IMG/VR virus record: IMGVR_UViG_3300010274_000014
Strand: one strand, 5' to 3'
Source: a virus
DNA length: 20,546 bases
The notes beneath the pieces were generated by a model. That model was not told where the DNA came from. It was given only the letters and a program-made list of their open reading frames with translations, and did not search any database. Numbering within the stretch: position 1 is the first letter of the stretch; each line of letters begins with the position of its first letter. The translations under genes were made by a program, and so were the position numbers. Positions 894-12,712 of the stretch are shown here, one piece after another.

Positions 894-908
894 GTTAACA
901 GCGTTAAC
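894..908 (+). promoter_or_regulatory. 15-bp dyad GTTAACAGCGTTAAC, copy 1, upstream of the portal operon
   Basis: Exact match to copies at 9381-9395 (-) and 12698-12712 (+). It follows an AT-rich TATA-like 9-mer and ends 19 nt before the ATG at 928. Confidence 0.8.
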
Positions 909-1260: not shown

Positions 1261-2502
1261 ATGTCTGAACTCAATGCAGCTGCCCCTACTCCTAAAAGGA
1301 AATTATCCTTAGCAGCAGCAGTCGAACCTCTTAACAGGTCGAACACTTCTTCAACATCCGGGCCCTATGTAAATTTTGACCAGAACAACAGATTTACTTT
1401 TTACCAGCAGCTATCCACCTGCAACCCCCACGTTTCTACCGGTCTAAACAAACTGGGGCTTTCCTTGGTCAAAGGCATGTCCTTCGATGGAAAAAAGCAG
1501 GCAGTGAAAGAGTTCAAAGAATATTCTAAAAAATCAAACTTCACAAACCAGATACAGACAATTTCCCGCGTCCTCTGCAGGGACGGGACTTATCTTGCAA
1601 AACCTGTGTACGGGGCAAACGGTGGTAGTTTCCGCCTTGTGCCTTTCCTGATGCCTTATACAACAATCCTGCCTGAGGGGTATGCACCAGGTTCACGACC
1701 CACAAAAATAATGCAGCCTGGAAAAGATCTGGAAAAAACCAGGTTCTATGTATACGAGAAACAGCAAGCTCAGGAAGTCCTCGAATTCAACAAGGTTGTA
1801 TATGGTAACTATAACGAATATGATTCAGTGCAGCTGGATGTCAAAAAGAGGAAAACATACGGGCTATACGGGTCGTCTCTTCTTGTTCCCTTGATTCCAA
1901 GCATTCAAAACCTCCTGGACATCGATCAGGGGTTCATTTCCTTTGTCAAAAAATATGGTAACGGGCGGTATATTTTCAATTTCAGGTTAGTCGAAGAGCT
2001 TGTGAAGCAGGATATAATCACTCCTGAGGAAGGACAGGAAATCATCAATGATTGGTGTGAGAAACACAAGGACCTGTCCGAAAATGAGGACATTGTAGGG
2101 GCAGGCATTGATGTCTACACACCCGATCCAAAAGGCTCTCTTGATATTACAAAATTCAAGGAGAGTCTTGAGACTGAAATTCAGATAGGACTCTTCCAAT
2201 CGCCTTTGAACATGGGTAAGGCTTCCGGCACGACTTATGCAAGTGCGTACATGGTCGAAGAAGACAGGATGTTAGTCCTCGAAGGGATTCAGGAAATTGT
2301 AAAAGGTCTTGCTCAGACAGCTGTAGATTTCAGGCAGGCTGCTGCAGGAAAACAGCCAGGTTCAGTGACAATTGAATTTGAGGAATTGTCGCTTGAAAAA
2401 TTAACAGTGACTGAGATGCAGGAAATGTACAACACAGGCGTAATTTCAAAAGAGATGTTTTTGAAACGTACAGGATTCCCGGAAGAGGAAATGCAGGAGT
2501 GA
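1261..2502 (+). CDS. Portal protein
   Basis: 413 aa, located between terL and MuF, with a helical/beta pattern compatible with a portal. Assigned mainly by size and position. Confidence 0.75.
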   Translation: MSELNAAAPTPKRKLSLAAAVEPLNRSNTSSTSGPYVNFDQNNRFTFYQQLSTCNPHVSTGLNKLGLSLVKGMSFDGKKQAVKEFKEYSKKSNFTNQIQTISRVLCRDGTYLAKPVYGANGGSFRLVPFLMPYTTILPEGYAPGSRPTKIMQPGKDLEKTRFYVYEKQQAQEVLEFNKVVYGNYNEYDSVQLDVKKRKTYGLYGSSLLVPLIPSIQNLLDIDQGFISFVKKYGNGRYIFNFRLVEELVKQDIITPEEGQEIINDWCEKHKDLSENEDIVGAGIDVYTPDPKGSLDITKFKESLETEIQIGLFQSPLNMGKASGTTYASAYMVEEDRMLVLEGIQEIVKGLAQTAVDFRQAAAGKQPGSVTIEFEELSLEKLTVTEMQEMYNTGVISKEMFLKRTGFPEEEMQE

Positions 2503-2552
2503 GTGCATGACACTGTAAAATGCAATACAATTCAAAAACGGAGATAAAAACG

Positions 2553-3524
2553 ATGTTAAAACAACTGTTTATGATATTATTTTTAGTTATGCTCTTAGCA
2601 ACACCGTCAGTCGCAAGTGAAAAAGGTGCTATAATCCAGATGACCACAACATTAGAAAACAGCGATACTCAGCTACATTTTAATTATGCTGAAAACCTGG
2701 GAGATGGGCGTGGTGTTACATTTGGGTGTATCGGGTTCTGCACTGGGACTTATGATGGGAACATCCTTGTCAAACATTATACTGAACTGAATCCAAATAA
2801 CAATCTTGCAAAGTATATCCCGGCTCTGAATAAGATTGATGCTGGTCCTCACAATGCAGCAGGTGGAGACGGAAATCCAAGCTTAGAGGGATTATCTGGA
2901 TTTATAAAAGACGTTCAGTCGTGCAATGACCCACTTTTCAAGACAGCTCAGATTGACAAACTGGATGAGCTCTACTATAATCCTGCAATGGAAATTGCAG
3001 ATTCTATAGGCGCAAAAAATGCACTTACTAAAGCTTTCATCTATGATATGTGCGTCAGGCATGGAGTTGACGGGGCAGAAAGCATCATCAGGAAGGCAGG
3101 TACTACTCCGAAGCAGGGAGCTGATGAGAACACATATCTCGGAAAGTTGATTTCACTCAGGGACGCAAAACTAAAGCAGGAAGGCCTGGGAGATGTAAAC
3201 AGAGATCAGGGATACAAAAACGTCCTCAACAGTGGAAATGTTAATCTTCAGACTCCCTTTACTTTCGTTGCTTATGGAGAATCTTTCACTATTGATGGCA
3301 ACTTAGATCTCGGAGAATACCAGGAAGAAATCCCAGTTGAAGAACCACCGGAAGTAATCGAACCGGAAGAACCTGAAGAACCTGAAATTACACCAGAGGA
3401 ACCTGTAATTACTCCAGAAGAGCCTGAAAACACGGAAGAAAAGGATAACAAATGGCATCATAAAAAATATCATAAACACGGCAGGCATCACAAAGAGTGT
3501 CACAGACACAGTAGAAGATGTTGA
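2553..3524 (+). CDS. Secreted GH46 chitosanase-like glycoside hydrolase with Glu/Pro linker and His/Lys-rich tail
   Basis: LENS..NYAENLGDGRGVTFGCIGFCTGT..HYTELNPNNNLAKYIPAL matches the GH46 signature, with the catalytic Glu in ENS and Asp in GDGRG. Signal peptide MLKQLFMILFLVMLLATPSVA. ATG at 2553 has GGAGA upstream; an alternative start is at 2520. Confidence 0.88.
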   Translation: MLKQLFMILFLVMLLATPSVASEKGAIIQMTTTLENSDTQLHFNYAENLGDGRGVTFGCIGFCTGTYDGNILVKHYTELNPNNNLAKYIPALNKIDAGPHNAAGGDGNPSLEGLSGFIKDVQSCNDPLFKTAQIDKLDELYYNPAMEIADSIGAKNALTKAFIYDMCVRHGVDGAESIIRKAGTTPKQGADENTYLGKLISLRDAKLKQEGLGDVNRDQGYKNVLNSGNVNLQTPFTFVAYGESFTIDGNLDLGEYQEEIPVEEPPEVIEPEEPEEPEITPEEPVITPEEPENTEEKDNKWHHKKYHKHGRHHKECHRHSRRC

Positions 3525-3564: not shown

Positions 3565-5199
3565 ATGCTTCTGAACACTCCTGAGATTCGTCGCATCGAA
3601 TCCAGGTTCCTTTCTCTTTTTGAAAGAACTTTCCTTAAAGGAATCAAGGGAAAGCCTGCACCCTCTTACCTGAAATCAGTCAAGACTCAGTTCAAGTCAA
3701 AGACCTTCCAGATCCAGGCGGACAAAATCATTGATGATATCTACCTGCAGTCAATCGAACATACAGACAAACAAACAAAAAAGGCGCAGGCAAGTGTACT
3801 AAAAAAAGGCAGTAGGCACTTATCAGCTGCTTCAAAACCTCTTCCGATTACCGAGGAAGCCGTCAGGCAGGCTGTAGGATTATCGAAGGAAGTAACCGAA
3901 TCAATCATCAAGTTCCTGAAGGATGATGGGATCTACCTTGAGCATCCAAACACGCTTGAGAAAAGAGTACGGGAACTATGGGGTGGACAGAAGTATAGAG
4001 CTGTAAGATTTGCCAGGACGTTCACAGCTGATGTGGCTACAAATACAGAGCTCTGGAGATATCAGGATGCAGGGATTGACGACCTGCAGTTCTATGCGAA
4101 GATAGATGACAAGACTTCTCCGCAGTGTCGCACTATGCATGGGACGGTTTTTAAGACTGATTCTCCTGAGGCTAGACGGTACCGTTGTCCTTTGCACCAA
4201 AATTGCCGCAGTAGCCTCCTTCCTGTGCCTATCACTCAGAAAGTAGATCCTAAGATGCGGTTCGAGAACAGGGACTTCACTAGGCAGATGGATCAAGAAT
4301 TCAATATCCTTGATGACCGAACAGACAAGGACCTCATCAAGAAAACCTTTTCCGATATCGATACCTTCAATGAGAAGTACAGGATTGATCAGTTCATTCT
4401 TGACGAGGATGTAGAAGCCAGGCTGCAGAAGTTGAACATCCAGATCCTGAGTGAGATCCCAAAGGAGAAAACTAACTTAAAATATACGCCAGTAAAGACA
4501 GTTAAAAAGGCTGAGGAGTGGCTATTGGAAAACACTTCAGTGAAGTATGCCGATTTCAAAGGAGTGCATATAGACATTGTTAATGAGATGATTGAAAGTT
4601 TCGTATACCATCTGAATCTAGAACCTAAACTTGCTAACAAAATGAAATTTTATGGAACAGGACAGGCACAATTCGAGCTGTGGTATCAGGATGAACTCAA
4701 GAAGGAAATCGAGTGGCTAAAAAAACTCCACCCAGAAGATGAAAAACTCATATTAGAAAGGGCAAAGAGGAGAATTAAAAAGCCAAAGATGGATGGCAAA
4801 ACATACGCTCATTCGTGGAATCATCCCAAGTTTGGAGGCATTGGAGTAAATAAAAAGTTCGGTAGCAACCCATTAACGTTTTCTGAATGTGCCGAAAAAG
4901 ATGAGAGTGTAGGATGGCATCCTACAGGCTGCAAAACTATTAAATCGATATTCGATCACGAGTTTGGCCATGAGTTAGATAACATTTATAACATATCCAA
5001 TTCAGATATAGTGTCAAATCTCTATACCAAAAAAAATATTGAAGAAATTCATAACAACCTTTCTAGGTATGCTCTGACTTCCAAACAAGAGCTTGTGGCA
5101 GAGGCATGGGCAGAATATCTAAATAATCCAAGTCCCAGAAATATTGCAAAGGAAGTTGGAGAGTTTATAACGTCAGAAGTCAACAAGGGTAAATCATGA
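3565..5199 (+). CDS. MuF (SPP1 gp7-like) minor head protein fused to a C-terminal zincin metalloprotease (putative polymorphic toxin)
   Basis: MuF motif FYAKIDDKTSPQCRTMHG..CPLHQNCRS. The C-terminus has HEFGH (4957-4971) and LSRYA..SKQELVAEAWAEY. Confidence 0.85.
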   Translation: MLLNTPEIRRIESRFLSLFERTFLKGIKGKPAPSYLKSVKTQFKSKTFQIQADKIIDDIYLQSIEHTDKQTKKAQASVLKKGSRHLSAASKPLPITEEAVRQAVGLSKEVTESIIKFLKDDGIYLEHPNTLEKRVRELWGGQKYRAVRFARTFTADVATNTELWRYQDAGIDDLQFYAKIDDKTSPQCRTMHGTVFKTDSPEARRYRCPLHQNCRSSLLPVPITQKVDPKMRFENRDFTRQMDQEFNILDDRTDKDLIKKTFSDIDTFNEKYRIDQFILDEDVEARLQKLNIQILSEIPKEKTNLKYTPVKTVKKAEEWLLENTSVKYADFKGVHIDIVNEMIESFVYHLNLEPKLANKMKFYGTGQAQFELWYQDELKKEIEWLKKLHPEDEKLILERAKRRIKKPKMDGKTYAHSWNHPKFGGIGVNKKFGSNPLTFSECAEKDESVGWHPTGCKTIKSIFDHEFGHELDNIYNISNSDIVSNLYTKKNIEEIHNNLSRYALTSKQELVAEAWAEYLNNPSPRNIAKEVGEFITSEVNKGKS

Positions 5200-5369
5200 C
5201 AATCGGAGCGGCACCAGTTTGTTTGGAATGTAAACATTTAATTGAAGATCTGGGTCCTATGCGATGCAAGGCATTTCCTGATGGCATTCCTGATGAGATC
5301 TGGAGAGGCAACAATGACCATAAGAAACCTTATCCTGGAGATCATGGGATACAGTTCGAACACGTATGA
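5196..5369 (+). CDS. Small Cys/His protein, copy 1 (57 aa; putative immunity protein; absent from the ORF track)
   Basis: Hand translation: [61 protein letters not shown] overlap with the MuF stop. Confidence 0.85.
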   Translation: MTIGAAPVCLECKHLIEDLGPMRCKAFPDGIPDEIWRGNNDHKKPYPGDHGIQFEHV

Positions 5370-5539
5370 CTATTGGACCCAGACCTGTATGTTTAGATTG
5401 CAAACATTTTATACACTAGAAGGGCTCGTTCAGGTGTGCCGCTTTCCCTGATGGTATCCCGGAAGAAATAGAGATGGGTGAGAACGACCACAAGAAGCCT
5501 TATCCTGGGGATCATGGAATTCAATTCGAGCACGTTTAA
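5366..5539 (+). CDS. Small Cys/His protein, copy 2 (57 codons, in-frame TAG at codon 18; pyrrolysine read-through or pseudogene)
   Basis: [56 protein letters not shown], with TAG at 5417-5419. ATGA overlap with copy 1. Confidence 0.75.
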
Positions 5540-5599
5540 AGGATGACTCAAGAAGCCATTAAGTCTTTAGCTTAGTGGCAGTTCGCCGAAGGAAGAAAC

Positions 5600-5812
5600 A
5601 TGACATGTATTGACGACCGGGAATTAGACAAAGTAACTTACAGTTCGATCTGTCTTCCGTGCAAACATTTTCAGAGAGAAGCTTATTCTGAAACCGGTAA
5701 AAAGACATGTGATGCTTTTCCTGATGGTATTCCTGATGAGATCTGGAGAGGCAACAATGACCATAAGAAACCGTACCCCGGAGATCATTGGATACAGTTC
5801 GAGCACTTATGA
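5600..5812 (+). CDS. Small Cys/His protein, copy 3 (70 aa)
   Basis: [40 protein letters not shown]. An in-frame ATG at 5543 is separated from it only by TAG 5573-5575. Confidence 0.85.
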   Translation: MTCIDDRELDKVTYSSICLPCKHFQREAYSETGKKTCDAFPDGIPDEIWRGNNDHKKPYPGDHWIQFEHL

Positions 5813-5982
5813 CTATTGGACCCAGACCTATCTGTTTTGAATGCAAACATTTTATAGATGAAGAGGGACCTATGAGATGTGAAGCCTTTCCGGATGGCAT
5901 CCCTGAAGATATCGTATTAGGAGATAACGATCATAAAAAGCCTTATCCTAGAGATAATGGAATCCAATTTGAGCATTTATGA
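5809..5982 (+). CDS. Small Cys/His protein, copy 4 (57 aa)
   Basis: [57 protein letters not shown]. The likely start is ATG 5809, an ATGA overlap with copy 3. Confidence 0.85.
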   Translation: MTIGPRPICFECKHFIDEEGPMRCEAFPDGIPEDIVLGDNDHKKPYPRDNGIQFEHL

Positions 5983-6085
5983 CTACTTTCCTCTTTTTAA
6001 TGAGGAGTATCTATTTTCGCATTTTATGAAACCTTATCTCAAAAGACCACGGTTTTAACTATATACAGATGGAGTAGTAAGCACG

Positions 6086-6298
6086 GTGGGAGAAAAATTC
6101 GTTTTGGATGACTCATCTGATGCAGAAATCATCTATAGCCCAATCTGCTCATATTGCAAACACTTCTATTGGAAAGGCAGAGGGATTCACGAATGTAATG
6201 CTTTTCCTGACGGCATCCCAGATGATATATGGAGAGGCGACAACGATCACAAGAAGCCTTACCCTGGAGATCACATGATTCAATTTGAACACGTTTAA
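6086..6298 (+). CDS. Small Cys/His protein, copy 5 (70 aa, GTG start)
   Basis: [40 protein letters not shown], with GGAG upstream. Confidence 0.85.
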   Translation: MGEKFVLDDSSDAEIIYSPICSYCKHFYWKGRGIHECNAFPDGIPDDIWRGDNDHKKPYPGDHMIQFEHV

Positions 6299-6427
6299 AA
6301 AAGCAAAATTTGTTTACTTACTTTCTTCTGCCATTCTGCTCTGTTTTATGTGGTGGACTTAGATATGAATTTCTAAGTTCTTCAGTGCAAATTTTTAAGG
6401 CTTTATCTATTTTTAAATCGGGAACTA

Positions 6428-6461
6428 TCGTATTTTCTCAACATATCTCGTATTTTCTCAA
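6428..6461 (+). repeat. 14-bp direct repeat TCGTATTTTCTCAA, two copies with a 20-bp period
   Basis: Copies at 6428-6441 and 6448-6461 in the convergent intergenic region. Confidence 0.6.
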
Positions 6462-6602
6462 TCCACTTTGGATAAAGAGCCATCTCTCGTTCACGTCTTT
6501 TACTTACCAAGAGCACCACGCATAGTATAATGACTTATCATCTTATAAAAAAACTTATTACTACAGGGCTACCTTTGGTGTAATTCTTCTGTTTTTGAGC
6601 TG

Positions 6603-6647: not shown

Positions 6648-7490
6648 TTAATACGTTATCTTATTGTTTCTTGTTATAGCACTTGGTGCATCAATTCCCG
6701 GCTTCGCACATTTCTCAATTATGTTGTCCTCTATGATTACATTTGACATTTTTGCCTCTATTGCTCGAACTCCTGGATAAGGTAGGTCCTTGATAGAATT
6801 CCCATAAGCTCGGATATCCTTGAGTTCTCCCTGCAACTGCAGACCAGTATGGCCACCTCCGGAGGTGCTGCATTTGTTGTTAAGAAACTCCCCTTTTGTC
6901 ACGTTATAGAAGCGGCAGCTGGAATTTGTTCGGTTGATGAACGTGGAATTTCTAACAGAGATGCCGTCCACGTAATAAGCGTATATCCCATCATGCCCAC
7001 ATTTGTTGACAGTTATTCGGTCTATGTCAACACCATAACAGTTGTTAAGCAGGATGGCATCATTGCAACCGTTCTGGAAAACACAATCCTCGAGAGTCAA
7101 ACCGTTACAGCCTATCAGGGTTGCCATGTTATAAAGCGAAGTTCCGAGCCTGACGTCAGGATAATAATCACTCTGACTACCATCGACAGTGAAGTTCTTC
7201 AGGACCACATTGTTTGCGGAGTTTCCAGCGATCATCAGCATAGCCTTTTCTTCTTTGATAGGACATCCACGGTAACCCCAGGCAGGCAGCCCTTTTGCGA
7301 GCTTTATTGTTGCACCATTTCCATCGAAGATGGTATGGCTACGGAACAGGAGAGAATCTTCTATTGTGTAGATGACATCCGGATCCAGGATTATCGTCCC
7401 ACCATGAGCAAGAGCTTGATTGATTGCTTCTGACGTGGTCCCACGATATGTCCTGAGCTTTCCATCTGCGCCGATAGCTTCAATCGTGTT
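6648..7490 (-). CDS. Parallel beta-helix (pectate-lyase-like/disaggregatase-related) domain, in frame with 7491-8072 across one TAG
   Basis: Frame 7490 to 7242 is open (NTIEAIGADGK..SEAINQALAHGGTIILDPDVIYTIEDSLLFRSHTIFDGNGATIKL..) and runs into MLMIAGNS at 7241. It has PbH1-like repeats and GHDGIYA..RTNS..R motifs. Read-through would give 474 aa from 8072. Confidence 0.8.
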   Translation of the reverse strand, partial: NTIEAIGADGKLRTYRGTTSEAINQALAHGGTIILDPDVIYTIEDSLLFRSHTIFDGNGATIKLAKGLPAWGYRGCPIKEEKAMLMIAGNSANNVVLKNFTVDGSQSDYYPDVRLGTSLYNMATLIGCNGLTLEDCVFQNGCNDAILLNNCYGVDIDRITVNKCGHDGIYAYYVDGISVRNSTFINRTNSSCRFYNVTKGEFLNNKCSTSGGGHTGLQLQGELKDIRAYGNSIKDLPYPGVRAIEAKMSNVIIEDNIIEKCAKPGIDAPSAITRNNKITY

Positions 7491-8072
7491 CTATCGCTTC
7501 AGTTTGACGTATATTTCAATACCTTCTGCCCGCTCCTTGATCTTCTCGGATATCTCTTCGGCTTCTGACTCAGAGACACATGGAATTACCAGGTAGGCTG
7601 CATCGTCCGGCTGAGTAGGGATCTCGGGTGTTTCAGGCTCCGGTTCGGTTGGCTTTTCAGGCTCCACAGGCTGTTCTGGTTCAGGCTCAGGATCGACATA
7701 AGAATAAGTGTATGCCACGTTCATCATTCGGGATCTGGGTGTCCCAGAGGTTTTCAGATACCATCTGATGATAACAGGCTTTCCAACTCCGGCAACAAAA
7801 TCTACTGCCTTGAGCTGCTCTTCATATTTTGTATTCTTTGTTGTGAATGTTGCCAGTTGTTCCTGCTTCCCATCGACTTCTATAGTAACTATGCATGTGC
7901 CTTCAATGCCTGAAGCCGAAACCTGAAATAACATGGAAAGCTTTTCAATCTTGATCCTCTTACCTTCCTGTGCTGGAATCGTTTCTTTTTTCTGCATTTC
8001 CCTTTCTGTCGAAAAATCGATTTCGGTGTAGATGGTCGAATATACTTTTTTTGTATCCTCAATGGTAGGCAT
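7491..8072 (-). CDS. Beta-rich domain, Glu/Pro linker and short C-terminal module; ends in TAG (possible read-through)
   Basis: 193 aa, with AGGAG upstream of ATG 8072 and a PEPEQPVEPEKPTEPEPE linker. The stop at 7493-7491 is TAG. Confidence 0.8.
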   Translation of the reverse strand: MPTIEDTKKVYSTIYTEIDFSTEREMQKKETIPAQEGKRIKIEKLSMLFQVSASGIEGTCIVTIEVDGKQEQLATFTTKNTKYEEQLKAVDFVAGVGKPVIIRWYLKTSGTPRSRMMNVAYTYSYVDPEPEPEQPVEPEKPTEPEPETPEIPTQPDDAAYLVIPCVSESEAEEISEKIKERAEGIEIYVKLKR

Positions 8073-8074
8073 GG

Positions 8075-9355
8075 TTATTTTCTCCTAAAAATCTGTTTTT
8101 CTGGTAATGAATTTCGAATAGCAGTAACCTGTTCAGAACTACAAGAAATAAACAAGAAAGCTGGTCTTTCAGCTGGCTCTTCTTCTGGACCCTCAACTGT
8201 GCTGGATACATTTATTGCACCGTAGTAATCCCCAGATTCGTTATTCAGGAAAGTGTTCTCAGAAGCTTCAACGGTATAGTAATCCTTTCCAAGAACATTG
8301 GCAATTGCATATCCTGAAACTGCCCCTGGATAGAAGGCCTTCCTTGTATTGACAATTGAGTTCTTCCTGACTGTTGCTTTGCAGCCCTTCACCCCACCTT
8401 TCCCGATGTAGTTGTCAAAACTGACCGCATTTCCAGAGCACCCATCAAAAATATTGTTCTCGATCAGAACATCCGTGAAACCATCAAAAACCATCCCACC
8501 TACTCCAGGGATCGTGTTCGCTGCTGGCATCATACCGCAGTTTCTGAATGTATTGTGATGGATGTACACTCCAGCTGCACCGCCCAGAGGCACGCTTGCT
8601 ATACCCCAGACACCAGGTCCGTAAGTGTCCTGGACCAGGCAATTCTTCATCTCGATATGCATGCATTTTGTCCCGTCCAGGATATTCTCAAGCTGCACAG
8701 GCGGAGCCCAGGCATTGTTCGTGAAGTCGTGGAACTGGCAGCTGTCAATCAGGACATTAGAAGAGGACCTTACCCGGACAGCATTGTTAGCCCGGATTTC
8801 AAAAGAACAGTTTTCAATCGTGGCTCCAGAACATTTGAAAAGGTGAATGAAGTCATGTCCCCCTTCTGCACCGGAGCAGTGGTCAAAGACAAGGTTTGAA
8901 CCGCCGTTCAGCCTCCACCCATCCCCCTCATTCCGGTTCACTTCCACATTCCGGAATACTGAGTTTGTGATATTTGAAAAGCCGAACAGGTTTCCATACC
9001 CTACTCCATGATCGTTCTGAGTGTTTCCCTGGTTTGCATAGTTCCCATCATAGACAAGGCCGTCAACTTCCAGGCCTGTAATCGAAGAGCCTTTCTGTCC
9101 TATGATAGGGACCTGTGCTCCAAAGTTAGGAGCGTTGTCCATGAGCTTCCATGTCACTCCTTCCTCGAAAGTCATTTTTGTATTATCGTTCAAAAACAGC
9201 CGGGAGTTGAGGAGGTATTGTCCGGTATCGCCTTTCAAAAAATGAACATGTGAGTACTGTAGCAGATCGCCGTTCACCGTTCCCGTTTTGTCAAGTGCCT
9301 TCTGTATGCCAGGGGAACTTGTTCCCTTAACCGGGGTTAGTATGCAGGTTTCCAC
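8075..9355 (-). CDS. Right-handed parallel beta-helix polysaccharide depolymerase-like protein (disaggregatase-related)
   Basis: 426 aa with repeats such as ITNSVFRNVEVNRNEGDGWRL, GGHDFIHL, DTYGPGVW, VYIHHNTF and LIENNIFDG. GTG start, no signal peptide. Confidence 0.82.
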   Translation of the reverse strand: METCILTPVKGTSSPGIQKALDKTGTVNGDLLQYSHVHFLKGDTGQYLLNSRLFLNDNTKMTFEEGVTWKLMDNAPNFGAQVPIIGQKGSSITGLEVDGLVYDGNYANQGNTQNDHGVGYGNLFGFSNITNSVFRNVEVNRNEGDGWRLNGGSNLVFDHCSGAEGGHDFIHLFKCSGATIENCSFEIRANNAVRVRSSSNVLIDSCQFHDFTNNAWAPPVQLENILDGTKCMHIEMKNCLVQDTYGPGVWGIASVPLGGAAGVYIHHNTFRNCGMMPAANTIPGVGGMVFDGFTDVLIENNIFDGCSGNAVSFDNYIGKGGVKGCKATVRKNSIVNTRKAFYPGAVSGYAIANVLGKDYYTVEASENTFLNNESGDYYGAINVSSTVEGPEEEPAERPAFLFISCSSEQVTAIRNSLPEKQIFRRK

Positions 9356-9380: not shown

Positions 9381-9395
9381 GTTAACGCTGTTAAC
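9381..9395 (-). promoter_or_regulatory. 15-bp dyad GTTAACAGCGTTAAC, copy 2, upstream of the minus-strand operon
   Basis: The + strand reads GTTAACGCTGTTAAC. On - it is preceded by TTTATTAAA and ends 25 nt before GTG 9355. Confidence 0.8.
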
Positions 9396-10147: not shown

Positions 10148-11308
10148 ATGAAAGAATTTAGAACCGGAATTTTGCTTGTGACAATACTTTTGGCGAGTTT
10201 TGTTCTTGTACCAGCTACGAGTGCGGCTGCCGAGGATGCAAGTGTAAACAATCTCTCTGATAGTGAGGTTGAAACTTACGGCATCGATGGGCTAACTCCT
10301 CAACAGGTTAAAGAAATAGAAGCTGAAATCAGCCGTATAAGGGACATGCCAGATATTGTCAATAACTGCCCTTATATGCCTCTGCTTGTGGCCACTGACG
10401 AGCAAAAAGAGATTTTCTTAGGGTATATAGACAATTTATCAGTCTCGGACTCTGAGAAAAAGGAAATGAAAAAAGAATTGAAAGATATTTGGAGTCGTGT
10501 TCCAGACAAAATCACGGAAAAAGATTATCCAGTGATGGAAAAAATCGGAAAGGCAATAACCACACATGTTGAAGAGACATATTGGGCAGAAGATCAAAGT
10601 GTTAGATGGATGTCATATGCACACCGTAACTTAATTTCTGCCGGTGTCAATTTGGTTTATGGAAATCCTACTTGGGCAGGCTGGGCTTATGATACTGCTA
10701 TGGATCCCGATACCTCCATTGATACAGGTTCAATCTATGTCCCTGTACCTACTCCGCTTGGTTTTGTGACGATTTCGCTTCCTAAAAAATGTTACTACCA
10801 TTATTATAACCCAGATCTCAGTTTCGGAGGAGCTCCAGGGAAATGTTCTTCCTACGCAGCACAAGCAAAAACCTATTATGGGAATCAGGAATACCAAAAT
10901 GCTTTTGAAACACTTGGAATAGCCAGCCACTACCTTTCAGATGTAGCGCAGCCAATGCACTCGGGTGGAGAACTTGGGTCACTTGTGGATTATTTGCTAA
11001 ATTGGGACGTTACTTACCATATCAGATACGAACAATATGTGAACAATAATTGGAACACTGGCCGTAATTTCGGTAGATGGGTTACTCGAAACACCAATGT
11101 AAATACTGTAACCGACCCCGCTGAAGCAGTAAGATCCATGGCAGCATATAGTAATCCTTACTCCTCTTTATTATGGGACGAAATTTATGCTCATCCAGAC
11201 TTTGATGTACCGGGTCAAGATACGACATATATACAATACGTAACGATAATTATGAATCAGGAGGCAGCAAAGTATAATGCAGGTCTAGCAGAGTATATAA
11301 GTAGTTAA
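10148..11308 (+). CDS. Secreted Zn-dependent phospholipase C / S1-P1 nuclease superfamily protein
   Basis: Signal peptide; WMSYAH, DPD, HYY, HYLSDVAQPMH and HIRYEQY reproduce the tri-zinc ligand pattern of this superfamily. Confidence 0.78.
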   Translation: MKEFRTGILLVTILLASFVLVPATSAAAEDASVNNLSDSEVETYGIDGLTPQQVKEIEAEISRIRDMPDIVNNCPYMPLLVATDEQKEIFLGYIDNLSVSDSEKKEMKKELKDIWSRVPDKITEKDYPVMEKIGKAITTHVEETYWAEDQSVRWMSYAHRNLISAGVNLVYGNPTWAGWAYDTAMDPDTSIDTGSIYVPVPTPLGFVTISLPKKCYYHYYNPDLSFGGAPGKCSSYAAQAKTYYGNQEYQNAFETLGIASHYLSDVAQPMHSGGELGSLVDYLLNWDVTYHIRYEQYVNNNWNTGRNFGRWVTRNTNVNTVTDPAEAVRSMAAYSNPYSSLLWDEIYAHPDFDVPGQDTTYIQYVTIIMNQEAAKYNAGLAEYISS

Positions 11309-12697: not shown

Positions 12698-12712
12698 GTT
12701 AACAGCGTTAAC
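12698..12712 (+). promoter_or_regulatory. 15-bp dyad GTTAACAGCGTTAAC, copy 3, upstream of the capsid/tail operon
   Basis: Directly preceded by TTTATAATT and ends 8 nt before ATG 12721. Confidence 0.82.

What the first reader, a model, noticed from the sequence alone, without database searches (positions are those of the whole stretch)
2553..3524. Sec-exported GH46 chitosanase-family enzyme in an archaeal virus head operon
Seen: the full GH46 N-terminal signature with both catalytic residues, plus a signal peptide. Established: GH46 is a lysozyme-superfamily fold acting on hexosamine polymers and is also encoded by chloroviruses. Methanosarcina has no murein or pseudomurein but can be encased in methanochondroitin (GalNAc/GlcA). 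Inference: this is a signal-peptide 'endolysin' for a non-murein archaeal matrix, unlike the pseudomurein endoisopeptidases (PeiP/PeiW) of Methanothermobacter viruses.
Basis: partly seen in the sequence, partly recalled or inferred. Interest (0 to 1): 0.75.

Follow-up and report, generated by a model that had tools for sequence, protein, structure and literature searches.

The report
Secreted chitosanase-family enzyme in Methanosarcina virus
A tailed virus of the methane-producing archaeon Methanosarcina carries, among its head genes, an intact exported GH46 (chitosanase-type) sugar-cutting enzyme copied from its host lineage, which most likely loosens an amino-sugar slime layer around the cells so that virions can get out and spread.

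Summary
Window 2553-3524 encodes a 323-aa protein with four parts: a Sec-type signal peptide, a complete GH46 domain, an acidic Pro/Glu linker and a His/Lys/Arg tail. The GH46 match is Pfam E 3.9e-46 and 1CHK E 1.3e-34, and the model fits solved chitosanases at TM 0.85. The acid, base and amine-binding residues are all present.

The gene lies between the portal and MuF genes of a siphovirus-like element. The nearest relative of that element is a provirus in a Methanosarcina MAG. That relative has other genes in this slot, so GH46 is swappable cargo.

Five further viral contigs carry GH46. The copy in a M. horonobensis provirus differs from this one with dN/dS 0.06.

"Endolysin" is the wrong word, and methanochondroitin is not clearly the substrate.

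- GH46 occurs in 5 of 59 Methanosarcina species genomes.
- Some copies are fused to disaggregatase repeats (CBM96-like).
- The cellular loci sit beside CE4 deacetylases and a CE4–GT2 (PgaC/NodC-like) synthase fusion.

This points to a partly de-N-acetylated hexosamine polymer of the matrix as the substrate. My best reading is a late, secreted matrix depolymerase for virus escape and spread. No biochemistry or expression data were obtainable. This scan holds no note of this gene on other DNA, and the paper library gave no prior report.

The parts
894..908 (+). 15-bp dyad GTTAACAGCGTTAAC at the head of the operon that contains the GH46 gene. Identical copies lie at 9381-9395 (-) and 12698-12712 (+). 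Presumed late-operon control site.
   Evidence: 3 exact copies against 0.03 expected by chance. No T-rich terminator or obvious TATA element lies in the 50-nt portal-GH46 gap or the 40-nt GH46-MuF gap (sequence).
1261..2502 (+). Portal-like protein gene, immediately upstream of GH46.
   Evidence: atlas feature score 0.97 to Portal_Mu/Phage_portal clusters; 62% identical to the protein in the same position of the G002 Methanosarcina provirus. No Pfam or PDB sequence hit.
2541..2544 (+). GGAG ribosome-binding-like motif 9 nt upstream of ATG 2553.
   Evidence: the block is conserved with the L001 copy, while sequence further upstream diverges.
2553..2615 (+). Signal peptide, residues 1-21, with predicted cleavage after SVA.
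   Evidence: homologues have ASA before SEKGA.
2616..3302 (+). GH46 catalytic domain, residues 22-250. Glu35 is codon 2655-2657 and Asp51 is codon 2703-2705.
   Evidence: dN/dS is 0.06 against the M. horonobensis provirus copy.
3303..3443 (+). Acidic Pro/Glu-rich linker, residues 251-297, net charge -19, with 19 Glu and 10 Pro.
   Evidence: Low-confidence, extended region in the model. Similar linkers occur in the neighbouring beta-helix proteins.
3444..3524 (+). Basic His/Lys/Arg-rich tail, residues 298-323 (8 His, net +7, 2 Cys, last residue Cys), plus the stop codon.
   Evidence: The same kind of tail is on the viral copies P0123/L001, P0021 and P0028, and on P0005, P0049 and P0071, whose contexts were not looked up.
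3565..5199 (+). MuF-like minor head protein with a C-terminal extension, immediately downstream of GH46.
6648..9355 (-). Two signal-peptide-less right-handed beta-helix proteins. The one at 8075-9355 carries Disaggr_assoc and is tail-spike-like. They are probable matrix-degrading partners delivered by another route.
   Evidence: PF08480 E 4.3e-23, PF13229; phrog_2234 tail spike E 4.9e-12; shared C-terminal module.
10148..11308 (+). Second secreted hydrolase of the element: a zinc phospholipase C-like protein with a signal peptide. Possible membrane-acting exit factor.

Best explanation
The gene encodes an active, inverting GH46 endo-beta-1,4-hexosaminidase of the chitosanase type. It is transcribed with the late head genes and exported by the Sec pathway before or during virion assembly. 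Outside the cell it cuts a partly de-N-acetylated amino-sugar polymer in the extracellular matrix of Methanosarcina aggregates. This loosens the layer that traps virions and shields neighbouring cells, so the enzyme serves virus escape and cell-to-cell spread rather than lysis of the osmotic barrier.

The flexible acidic linker and the cationic His/Lys tail probably keep the enzyme on the polyanionic, uronate-rich matrix. They would stand in for the CBM96-like disaggregatase repeats fused to cellular paralogues. The beta-helix disaggregatase-like proteins of the same virus would attack the uronate-containing polymer, so the virus carries complementary matrix enzymes.

Shown: family membership, intact catalytic and amine-binding residues, fold, signal peptide, purifying selection, viral late-operon position, cargo status, and genomic linkage of the family to CE4, GT2 and disaggregatase domains.

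Inferred: the substrate, the timing, the role of the tail, and the benefit for egress.
For: Family, residues and fold. Signal peptide and start codon. Purifying selection between two viral copies: catalytic domain dN 0.058, dS 0.94, ratio 0.06.

Late-operon position, with no separate promoter or terminator seen and a shared 15-bp dyad.

Cargo status: the related provirus in G002 has a 557-aa and a 136-aa gene in the portal-MuF slot and no GH46 there. Window and L001 share GH46 at 78% identity but no detectable structural-gene similarity.

Recurrence in viruses:
- L001, a M. horonobensis provirus, where a 656-aa signal-peptide-less CE4-domain protein lies directly upstream
- L002, a GH46-Disaggr_repeat fusion
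- L031, with a Disaggr_assoc protein 1.5 kb away
- L027 and L028/L029, next to terminase genes

Cellular linkage:
- The M. horonobensis array of four GH46 genes includes a GH46 + Disaggr_repeat fusion.
- L005 has GH46, GH46-Disaggr_repeat and two giant multi-CE4 PKD proteins, one also with a PGF-CTERM match.
- G001 has two CE4-PKD-PGF-CTERM proteins, GH46 and a CE4-GT2 fusion in a row.
- The CE4-GT2 fusion best matches PgaC/IcaA (E 1.7e-42) and then NodC.
- The fusion is present in all 5 GH46-positive genomes against 18 of 59 overall. My own hypergeometric calculation gives p about 0.002, not corrected for phylogeny.
- The fusion lies within 3 kb of GH46 in 3 genomes and 7.4 kb away in a fourth.
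- The same chromosomal neighbourhood (MASE3 kinase, PRTase, DLH hydrolase) holds the synthase in G007 and the GH46 array in M. horonobensis.

Literature:
- The CBM96 founder binds a polyuronate and is about 30% identical to the disaggregatase DNRLRE repeat (PMC9971899).
- Methanochondroitin is negatively charged, and cells inside aggregates resist MetSV (PMC12369344; PMC13437554).

Viral precedent for GH46: BFVD hits include a Streptomyces phage and an uncultured Caudovirales GH46. Chlorovirus chitosanases are from my own knowledge.
Against: There is no biochemical datum. Every characterised GH46 I know of cleaves beta-1,4 GlcN polymers, and no glucosamine polymer has been described in Methanosarcina envelopes (own knowledge).

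The window itself has no CE4 gene, so any deacetylation would have to come from the host. The host of this particular virus is not in hand, so it is unknown whether it has the CE4-GT2 synthase or forms aggregates.

Only 5 of 59 Methanosarcina species genomes carry GH46, so the system is accessory. In M. horonobensis the GH46 array is 160 kb from the synthase.

Expression could not be checked. One viral copy (P0021) lacks a signal peptide, so export is not universal.
Confidence: 0.55

Rival explanations
1. The enzyme hydrolyses native methanochondroitin at the GalNAc-beta-1,4-GalNAc bond and acts as the virus's signal-peptide endolysin, so that wall digestion itself brings about lysis.
For: GH46 is fused to disaggregatase repeats (CBM96-like) in cellular and viral paralogues and sits next to Disaggr_assoc beta-helix genes. 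Methanochondroitin contains a beta-1,4 hexosamine-hexosamine bond (PMC12223506, and own knowledge). The enzyme is exported.
Against: Methanochondroitin lies outside the S-layer, and single cells live without it (PMC12369344), so removing it does not lyse cells. The residues that bind free amines (D68, the Glu197 equivalent) are invariant, and CE4 deacetylases are the recurrent neighbours. Both argue against a fully N-acetylated substrate. The galacto configuration at C4 differs from every known GH46 substrate (own knowledge). GH46 is absent from 54 of 59 Methanosarcina species genomes and from the M. acetivorans control.
Confidence: 0.15
2. Lysogenic-conversion cargo (a moron). The prophage expresses GH46 for the host's benefit, for example to remodel or disperse its own matrix or to control aggregate size, and it plays no direct part in the lytic cycle.
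For: The gene is swappable cargo in a variable slot. It is host-derived and nests among cellular paralogues. Cellular copies look like housekeeping partners of an exopolysaccharide synthase locus.
Against: It sits inside the late structural operon, 50 nt after the portal gene and 40 nt before MuF, with no promoter-like or terminator-like element of its own. At least four other viral contigs also place it in or beside the packaging and head genes. The viral copies looked up have their own format (a basic tail, with a cleavable signal peptide in three of the four) that differs from the membrane-anchored, glycosylated-stalk cellular forms.
Confidence: 0.15
3. Entry enzyme. The protein ends up on the virion or on vesicles and clears the matrix of the next host during adsorption.
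For: Signal-peptide-less GH46 variants exist that carry the same C-terminal module as the tail-spike-like beta-helix proteins. One chlorovirus chitosanase form is packaged in the virion (own knowledge).
Against: This copy has a cleavable Sec signal peptide and lacks that C-terminal module. Cytoplasmic head-tail assembly would not capture an exported protein.
Confidence: 0.05
4. An auxiliary or foreign-substrate enzyme that degrades chitosan from fungi or other organisms in the digester and is unrelated to the host envelope.
For: The active site is canonical and the protein is about 50% identical to clostridial chitosanase-family proteins.
Against: Methanosarcina does not grow on amino sugars (own knowledge). 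The repeated linkage to disaggregatase modules, surface-anchored CE4 proteins and a host GT2 synthase points to a self-made polymer.
Confidence: 0.05

Closest known systems
Bacterial GH46 chitosanases (Streptomyces sp. N174 CsnN174, PDB 1CHK; Bacillus subtilis CsnMY002, 7C6C/7C6D; Microbacterium OU01, 4OLT)
   Same: Same family and fold: 30-36% identity and TM 0.80-0.86. The same Glu/Asp pair, Arg/Thr helpers and acidic amine-binding residues. All are secreted enzymes.
   Different: This one is encoded by an archaeal virus. It has an added acidic Pro/Glu linker and a His/Lys tail. The presumed substrate is a host-made matrix polymer rather than environmental chitosan. Its activity is untested.
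Chlorovirus chitosanases (PBCV-1 A292L, CVK2 vChta-1) and GH46 proteins of actinophages
   Same: Virus-encoded GH46 enzymes, late genes thought to digest a glucosamine-rich host wall. The structural hits in the viral library are of this kind. The chlorovirus details are from my own knowledge.
   Different: Sequence identity is only 21-30%. The hosts are a eukaryotic alga or bacteria. Those enzymes have no Sec signal peptide plus cationic tail format. The viral copies here were acquired from the Methanosarcina lineage.
Methanosarcina mazei disaggregatase and disaggregatase-related proteins (Beta_helix + Disaggr_assoc + Disaggr_repeat)
   Same: Extracellular enzymes of the same genus that dissolve the aggregate matrix. 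The GH46 family is fused to, or lies next to, their repeat and associated domains (PMC12369344).
   Different: The catalytic fold is unrelated: a beta-helix against an alpha-helical lysozyme-like fold. The window's GH46 carries no disaggregatase domain.
Synthase-linked exopolysaccharide hydrolases and deacetylases (PgaB with PgaC, IcaB with IcaA, PelA, Aspergillus Agd3/Ega3/Sph3)
   Same: The logic is to make a HexNAc polymer with a GT2 enzyme, partly deacetylate it, and cut it with a hydrolase that needs the deacetylated sugar. Cellular GH46 loci show this gene set. The comparison systems are from my own knowledge.
   Different: The hydrolase family differs (GH46 rather than GH153, GH166, GH114 or GH135). 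Synthase and deacetylase are fused in one archaeal protein. Here the hydrolase has been captured by viruses.
Pseudomurein endoisopeptidases PeiP/PeiW of Methanothermobacter viruses
   Same: Wall-directed enzymes of methanogen viruses.
   Different: They are cysteine peptidases that cut pseudomurein cross-links and do lyse the cell. There is no sequence or mechanistic relation (own knowledge).

Membership tests
Glycoside hydrolase family 46 (CAZy GH46, Pfam PF01374) | Significant full-length match to the family profile | tested here: met
   157.8 bits against a cut-off of 27, profile positions 2-210 of 210. Eleven PDB chitosanase sequences matched in all, seven of them at E 1e-23 to 1e-34.
Glycoside hydrolase family 46 (CAZy GH46, Pfam PF01374) | General-acid Glu and general-base Asp (Glu22/Asp40 of CsnN174), with the Arg42/Thr45 helpers | tested here: met
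   E35, D51, R53 and T56 by alignment to 1CHK. All four are invariant in 52 homologues.
Glycoside hydrolase family 46 (CAZy GH46, Pfam PF01374) | Two-lobed alpha-helical lysozyme-superfamily fold with a substrate cleft | tested here: met
   AlphaFold2 model with pLDDT above 90 over residues 22-250. Foldseek TM 0.85 to 7C6D and 6LWU and 0.80 to 1CHK.
Glycoside hydrolase family 46 (CAZy GH46, Pfam PF01374) | Endo-hydrolysis of beta-1,4 linkages next to GlcN (EC 3.2.1.132) | not testable with these tools
   Needs an enzyme assay. The amine-binding Asp57 and Glu197 equivalents are conserved.
Phage or virus endolysin (lysis-cassette wall hydrolase) | Degrades the stress-bearing wall so that the cell bursts; usually paired with a holin or signal-arrest-release system | tested here: inconclusive
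   No holin family was detected next to the gene. The matrix targeted lies outside the S-layer and is dispensable (PMC12369344). Lysis itself was not testable.
Virion-associated polysaccharide depolymerase (tail spike or fibre enzyme) | No signal peptide, and a virion-attachment module | tested here: not met
   The protein has a cleavable signal peptide and lacks the C-terminal module shared by the beta-helix proteins.
Synthase-linked exopolysaccharide hydrolase (the glycosidase of a GT2 + CE4 polymer locus) | Gene neighbourhood with the polymer synthase and deacetylase | tested here: inconclusive
   Met for cellular paralogues: within 3 kb in G001, G002 and G018, and 7.4 kb in G009. Met in part for the L001 provirus, which has a CE4 protein upstream. 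Not met in the window, which has no CE4 or GT2 gene.

The most novel reading that the evidence does not exclude
A subset of Methanosarcina species builds a so far undescribed chitosan-like or deacetylated-PNAG-like exopolymer with a single CE4-GT2 fusion synthase plus surface-anchored CE4 deacetylases. GH46 enzymes are its dedicated hydrolases. Several unrelated tailed viruses of these archaea have captured the hydrolase and refitted it (Sec signal, acidic linker, cationic His/Lys tail, or alternatively a small C-terminal docking module) as a matrix-breaching weapon alongside disaggregatase-like beta-helix enzymes. If true, this would be the first glucosamine-type wall or matrix polymer in Archaea. 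It would also be the first glycosidase-based matrix depolymerase system described for archaeal viruses.
Probability: 0.3. Interest if true: 0.8.

Novelty: new variant of a known kind. Interest (0 to 1): 0.6.

Why it matters
How viruses of Methanosarcina get through or out of the polysaccharide matrix is unknown. That matrix protects aggregated cells, and aggregation is a documented response to virus attack (PMC13437554, PMC12369344). Methanosarcina is a key methane producer in digesters and soils.

This gene gives a concrete, easily expressed candidate enzyme. The comparative data also point to something beyond the virus. They tie GH46, CE4 deacetylases, a PgaC/NodC-like CE4-GT2 synthase and disaggregatase modules together in one gene set. 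That suggests an unrecognised amino-sugar polymer in the archaeal envelope.

Such enzymes could become tools to disperse Methanosarcina aggregates for genetics or for reactor control.

Tried and rejected
- No whole genome is held for the window, so host genes could not be read directly.
- Megablast of the whole window against GenBank phages found no match.
- The compendium paper on methanogen viruses and the paper identifying the disaggregatase gene are not in the held library.
- Literature searches gave no relevant prior report: chitosanase + Methanosarcina + virus, methanochondroitin + chitosanase, GH46 + archaeal viruses, methanochondroitin + deacetylase.
- NCBIfam has no model that hits the protein.
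- The portal-like protein has no Pfam or PDB sequence hit. It was assigned from language-model features and position only.
- I considered that the upstream ATG at 2520 is the true start. This is unlikely, because conservation with L001 begins only at the GGAG block.
- I considered that the viral copies form one virus-specific clade. Rejected: they are interspersed with cellular copies.
- I considered that the His/Lys tail marks viral copies only. Rejected: P0039 has a related tail in a cellular context.
- The GH46 hits in MAGs labelled Saccharibacteria and Paceibacterota (66-68% identity) were not resolved. They could be mis-binning or real transfer.
Full report
**What is there.** Window 2553-3524 is an ORF of 323 codons.

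- Pfam places residues 30-236 in Glyco_hydro_46 over the whole profile (E 3.9e-46).
- The best solved relatives are GH46 chitosanases: 1CHK at E 1.3e-34, and 4ILY, 7C6C, 6LWU and 4OLT.
- Counting along the 1CHK alignment gives Glu22 = E35, Asp40 = D51, Arg42 = R53 and Thr45 = T56.
- The acidic residues known to hold the substrate's free amino groups, Asp57 and Glu197, correspond to D68 and the Glu of LKQEGL. Their role is from my own knowledge of CsnN174 mutagenesis.
- E35, D51, R53, T56 and D68 are invariant in 52 homologues from both major clades.
- An AlphaFold2 model is confident over residues 22-250 and disordered from about residue 255 on.
- It superposes on chitosanase crystal structures at TM 0.80-0.86.

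Residues 1-21 form a typical Sec signal: one Lys, a 13-residue hydrophobic core and V-x-A before SEKGA. Homologues show ASA before SEKGA at the same point. The start at 2553 is backed by a GGAG block that is conserved with a second viral copy, while the sequence upstream diverges.

After the catalytic domain come a 47-residue Pro/Glu linker (net charge -19) and a 26-residue tail with 8 His, net charge +7, and a terminal Cys.

**Context.** The gene order upstream to downstream is:

- terminase large subunit C-terminal domain (3-821);
- a small membrane protein;
- a portal-like protein (1261-2502);
- GH46;
- a MuF-like head protein (3565-5199);
- five small paralogous genes;
- a 7.5-kb variable block;
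- scaffold, an HK97/linocin-type capsid protein, connector genes, tail tube and tape measure.

The variable block holds two minus-strand beta-helix proteins, one with Disaggr_assoc and tail-spike-like. It also holds a secreted zinc phospholipase C-like protein and a membrane protein.

The gaps on either side of GH46 are 50 and 40 nt, with no terminator-like T run. An exact 15-bp dyad heads this operon and two others. So the gene looks like part of the late message.

**Whose virus.** No genome is held for the window. An identical stretch occurs in a biogas-fermenter metagenome contig.

A provirus in a MAG that GTDB places in Methanosarcina (G002, contig 10) has capsid 69%, portal 62%, MuF 55% and terminase 53% identity, in the same order. 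The closest GH46 (78% overall; 88% over the columns kept for the tree) lies in a 34-kb provirus of M. horonobensis. I identify that provirus from the identical C-terminal tail of an NCBI M. horonobensis protein and from the match at 1.75 Mb of G010. Disaggregatase domains are a Methanosarcina hallmark: among 14 control genomes the repeat family rings only in M. acetivorans. I put a Methanosarcina host at about 0.85.

**The gene is cargo.** In the G002 provirus the portal-MuF slot holds a 557-aa and a 136-aa protein of no known family, and that element has no GH46. Conversely, the window and the M. horonobensis provirus share no detectable structural-gene similarity. They share only GH46, the small genes after MuF and, weakly, the beta-helix protein. 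The two GH46 copies differ with dS 0.94 but dN 0.058 in the catalytic domain, a ratio of 0.06. The enzyme is therefore under strong purifying selection in both viruses.

**Other viral copies.** Besides the window, five viral contigs carry this clade of GH46:

- L001, where GH46 follows directly after a 656-aa signal-peptide-less protein with a CE4 polysaccharide-deacetylase domain, and where Disaggr_assoc and Disaggr_repeat proteins lie nearby;
- L002, a GH46-Disaggr_repeat/CBM96 fusion in a virus whose capsid is related to the window's;
- L031, with a Disaggr_assoc beta-helix protein 1.5 kb upstream;
- L027, next to the large terminase;
- L028/L029, between a small-terminase-like gene and HNH/TerL.

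Three of these (L001, L027, L028/29) and the window share the basic His/Lys tail. The L028/29 copy has no room for a signal peptide. IMG/VR as a whole yielded only three contigs, so the trait is rare.

**Cellular relatives.** GH46 is found in 5 of 59 Methanosarcina species genomes. A quick maximum-likelihood tree of 116 homologues gives three results:

- A bacterial clade containing clostridial proteins splits from an archaeal clade with SH-aLRT 100.
- The window pairs with the M. horonobensis provirus copy (98).
- That pair sits inside a 25-member clade (99) holding cellular Methanosarcina copies and the other viral copies, which do not form one group.

The cellular forms looked at (P0004 to P0016) have an N-terminal membrane anchor and a stalk of N-glycosylation sequons. 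Other forms carry C-terminal PKD, FN3, beta-helix or Disaggr_repeat modules.

Fusions and neighbours tie the family to two things. The first is the disaggregatase system:

- GH46 + two or three Disaggr_repeats in M. horonobensis and G002;
- a Beta_helix/Disaggr_assoc gene directly upstream of a GH46-Disaggr_repeat gene in L008.

The repeat is CBM96-like. The founding CBM96 binds a polyuronate and is about 30% identical to the disaggregatase DNRLRE repeat (PMC9971899).

The second is deacetylation and synthesis of a HexNAc polymer:

- L005 has two giant multi-CE4 PKD proteins beside the GH46 genes, one also with a PGF-CTERM match.
- G001 has, in a row, two CE4-PKD-PGF-CTERM proteins, GH46 and a 701-aa protein.
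- That roughly 700-aa protein is a fusion of an N-terminal CE4/DUF2334 deacetylase with a C-terminal GT2 synthase.
- The synthase part is closest to PgaC/IcaA (E 1.7e-42) and then NodC.

The full-length fusion occurs in 18 of 59 genomes, including all five with GH46. My hypergeometric estimate is p about 0.002, uncorrected for phylogeny. It lies 2-3 kb from GH46 in G001, G002 and G018, 7.4 kb away in G009 and 160 kb away in G010.

In a GH46-less genome (G007) the fusion sits beside the same MASE3 kinase, PRTase and DLH genes that flank the GH46 array of M. horonobensis. That indicates one variable surface-polysaccharide island.

**Reading.** The chemistry of the active site argues that the substrate carries free amino groups. 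So does the company the family keeps: a GT2 HexNAc synthase fused to a deacetylase, plus surface CE4 enzymes. Two candidates remain.

1. A separate chitosan-like or deacetylated-PNAG-like exopolymer made by the CE4-GT2 enzyme.
2. The GalNAc-GalNAc bond of methanochondroitin after de-N-acetylation.

I favour the first, at roughly 0.35 against 0.2 of the total. A PgaC/NodC-type processive synthase usually makes a homopolymer. Methanochondroitin is thought to be assembled from nucleotide- and lipid-linked trisaccharides (own knowledge). Every known GH46 substrate has the gluco configuration. The disaggregatase-repeat fusions are compatible with both, because such a module could simply hold the enzyme in the uronate-rich matrix.

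For the virus, the Sec signal and the late-operon position suggest an enzyme sent outside the infected cell during assembly. The matrix shields cells from infection (PMC12369344; PMC13437554). A soluble matrix glycanase would therefore free progeny and expose neighbours.

'Endolysin' is not apt, because the matrix is not the osmotic barrier. The secreted phospholipase C-like protein at 10148-11308 is a better candidate for breaching the cell itself.

The cationic tail as a polyanion anchor is my inference. It rests on its charge, its recurrence in viral copies, and the absence of a CBM in those copies.

**Novelty.** GH46 membership is plain, and virus-encoded GH46 enzymes are known from chloroviruses and occur in actinophages (and own knowledge). 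NCBI already labels the cellular Methanosarcina proteins 'chitosanase'. The following appear to be new:

- the archaeal-virus setting;
- the secreted format with acidic linker and His/Lys tail;
- the exchange of the gene among unrelated Methanosarcina viruses;
- the gene-set link to CE4, CE4-GT2 and disaggregatase modules.

Searches of the held literature found no report of any of these. The main compendium on methanogen viruses could not be read.

**Limits.** No expression data and no biochemistry were available. The co-occurrence statistic ignores shared ancestry. Contexts were inspected for about a dozen of 166 homologues.

Noticed in passing
window 10148-11308 (+): A 386-aa protein with a Sec-type signal peptide resembles zinc-dependent phospholipase C (PDB 8cqm E 1.9e-6, B. 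cereus PLC E 1.6e-4, Pfam PF00882 weak; atlas cluster 'Phospholipase C', mostly archaeal). It is a second exported hydrolase of the virus and a candidate membrane-attacking exit factor.
   Followed up: partly
L026:4469-6550 (-) = G002:C36:19471-21549; also L033:11493-13598 and L032:9355-11490: A roughly 700-aa fusion of a CE4/DUF2334 polysaccharide deacetylase with a PgaC/IcaA/NodC-like GT2 synthase. The full-length form is in 18 of 59 Methanosarcina species genomes, including all five with GH46, and is usually within a few kb of GH46. It may make an undescribed deacetylated HexNAc polymer.
   Followed up: partly
window 7491-8072 (-) and 8075-9355 (-) C-termini; L001 2492-3178 (-) and 3180-4448 (-); L002 2-1171; proteins P0006, P0013, P0025: A shared C-terminal module of about 35 aa follows a Pro/Glu linker (pattern roughly h-x-h-I-x-C-x-S ... 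A ... I-x-h-x-x-K). It occurs on signal-peptide-less beta-helix, Disaggr_repeat and GH46 proteins. It may be a docking or targeting tag. The window's GH46 lacks it.
   Followed up: partly
window 5196-6525 (+): Five tandem small paralogous genes follow the MuF gene. Each matches the single small gene that follows MuF in L001 (58-84% aa) and in the G002 provirus (57-77%). So the MuF plus small-gene pairing is conserved across otherwise unrelated viruses.
   Followed up: partly
L024:17664-19791 (-) = G002:C10, between the portal and MuF genes: In the closest related provirus, the slot that holds GH46 in the window carries a 557-aa and a 136-aa protein with no Pfam family. The portal-MuF junction is therefore a cargo hot spot.
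   Followed up: partly
L001:7996-9966 (+): A 656-aa signal-peptide-less protein of the M. horonobensis provirus carries a central CE4 deacetylase domain (PF01522 E 8.9e-8; HfsH-like). It sits between the head-completion genes and GH46. It recalls the deacetylase-bearing head turrets reported for the haloarchaeal virus HFTV1 (PMC13437554).
   Followed up: no
L013 and L014 (MAG contigs labelled Saccharibacteria and Paceibacterota): These contigs carry GH46 genes 66-68% identical to the window's. One is the N-terminus of a 1199-aa protein with InlB B-repeats. GC content is 52% and 46%. Mis-binning or inter-domain transfer was not resolved.
   Followed up: no
L028:7170-8072 and L029 (protein P0021): This viral GH46 has the His/Lys tail but no signal peptide: a stop codon lies 8 codons upstream of the mature N-terminus. 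The same is seen in two independent contigs.
   Followed up: partly
window 894-908 (+), 9381-9395 (-), 12698-12712 (+): Three exact copies of the dyad GTTAACAGCGTTAAC, each just upstream of an operon start (0.03 expected by chance).
   Followed up: partly
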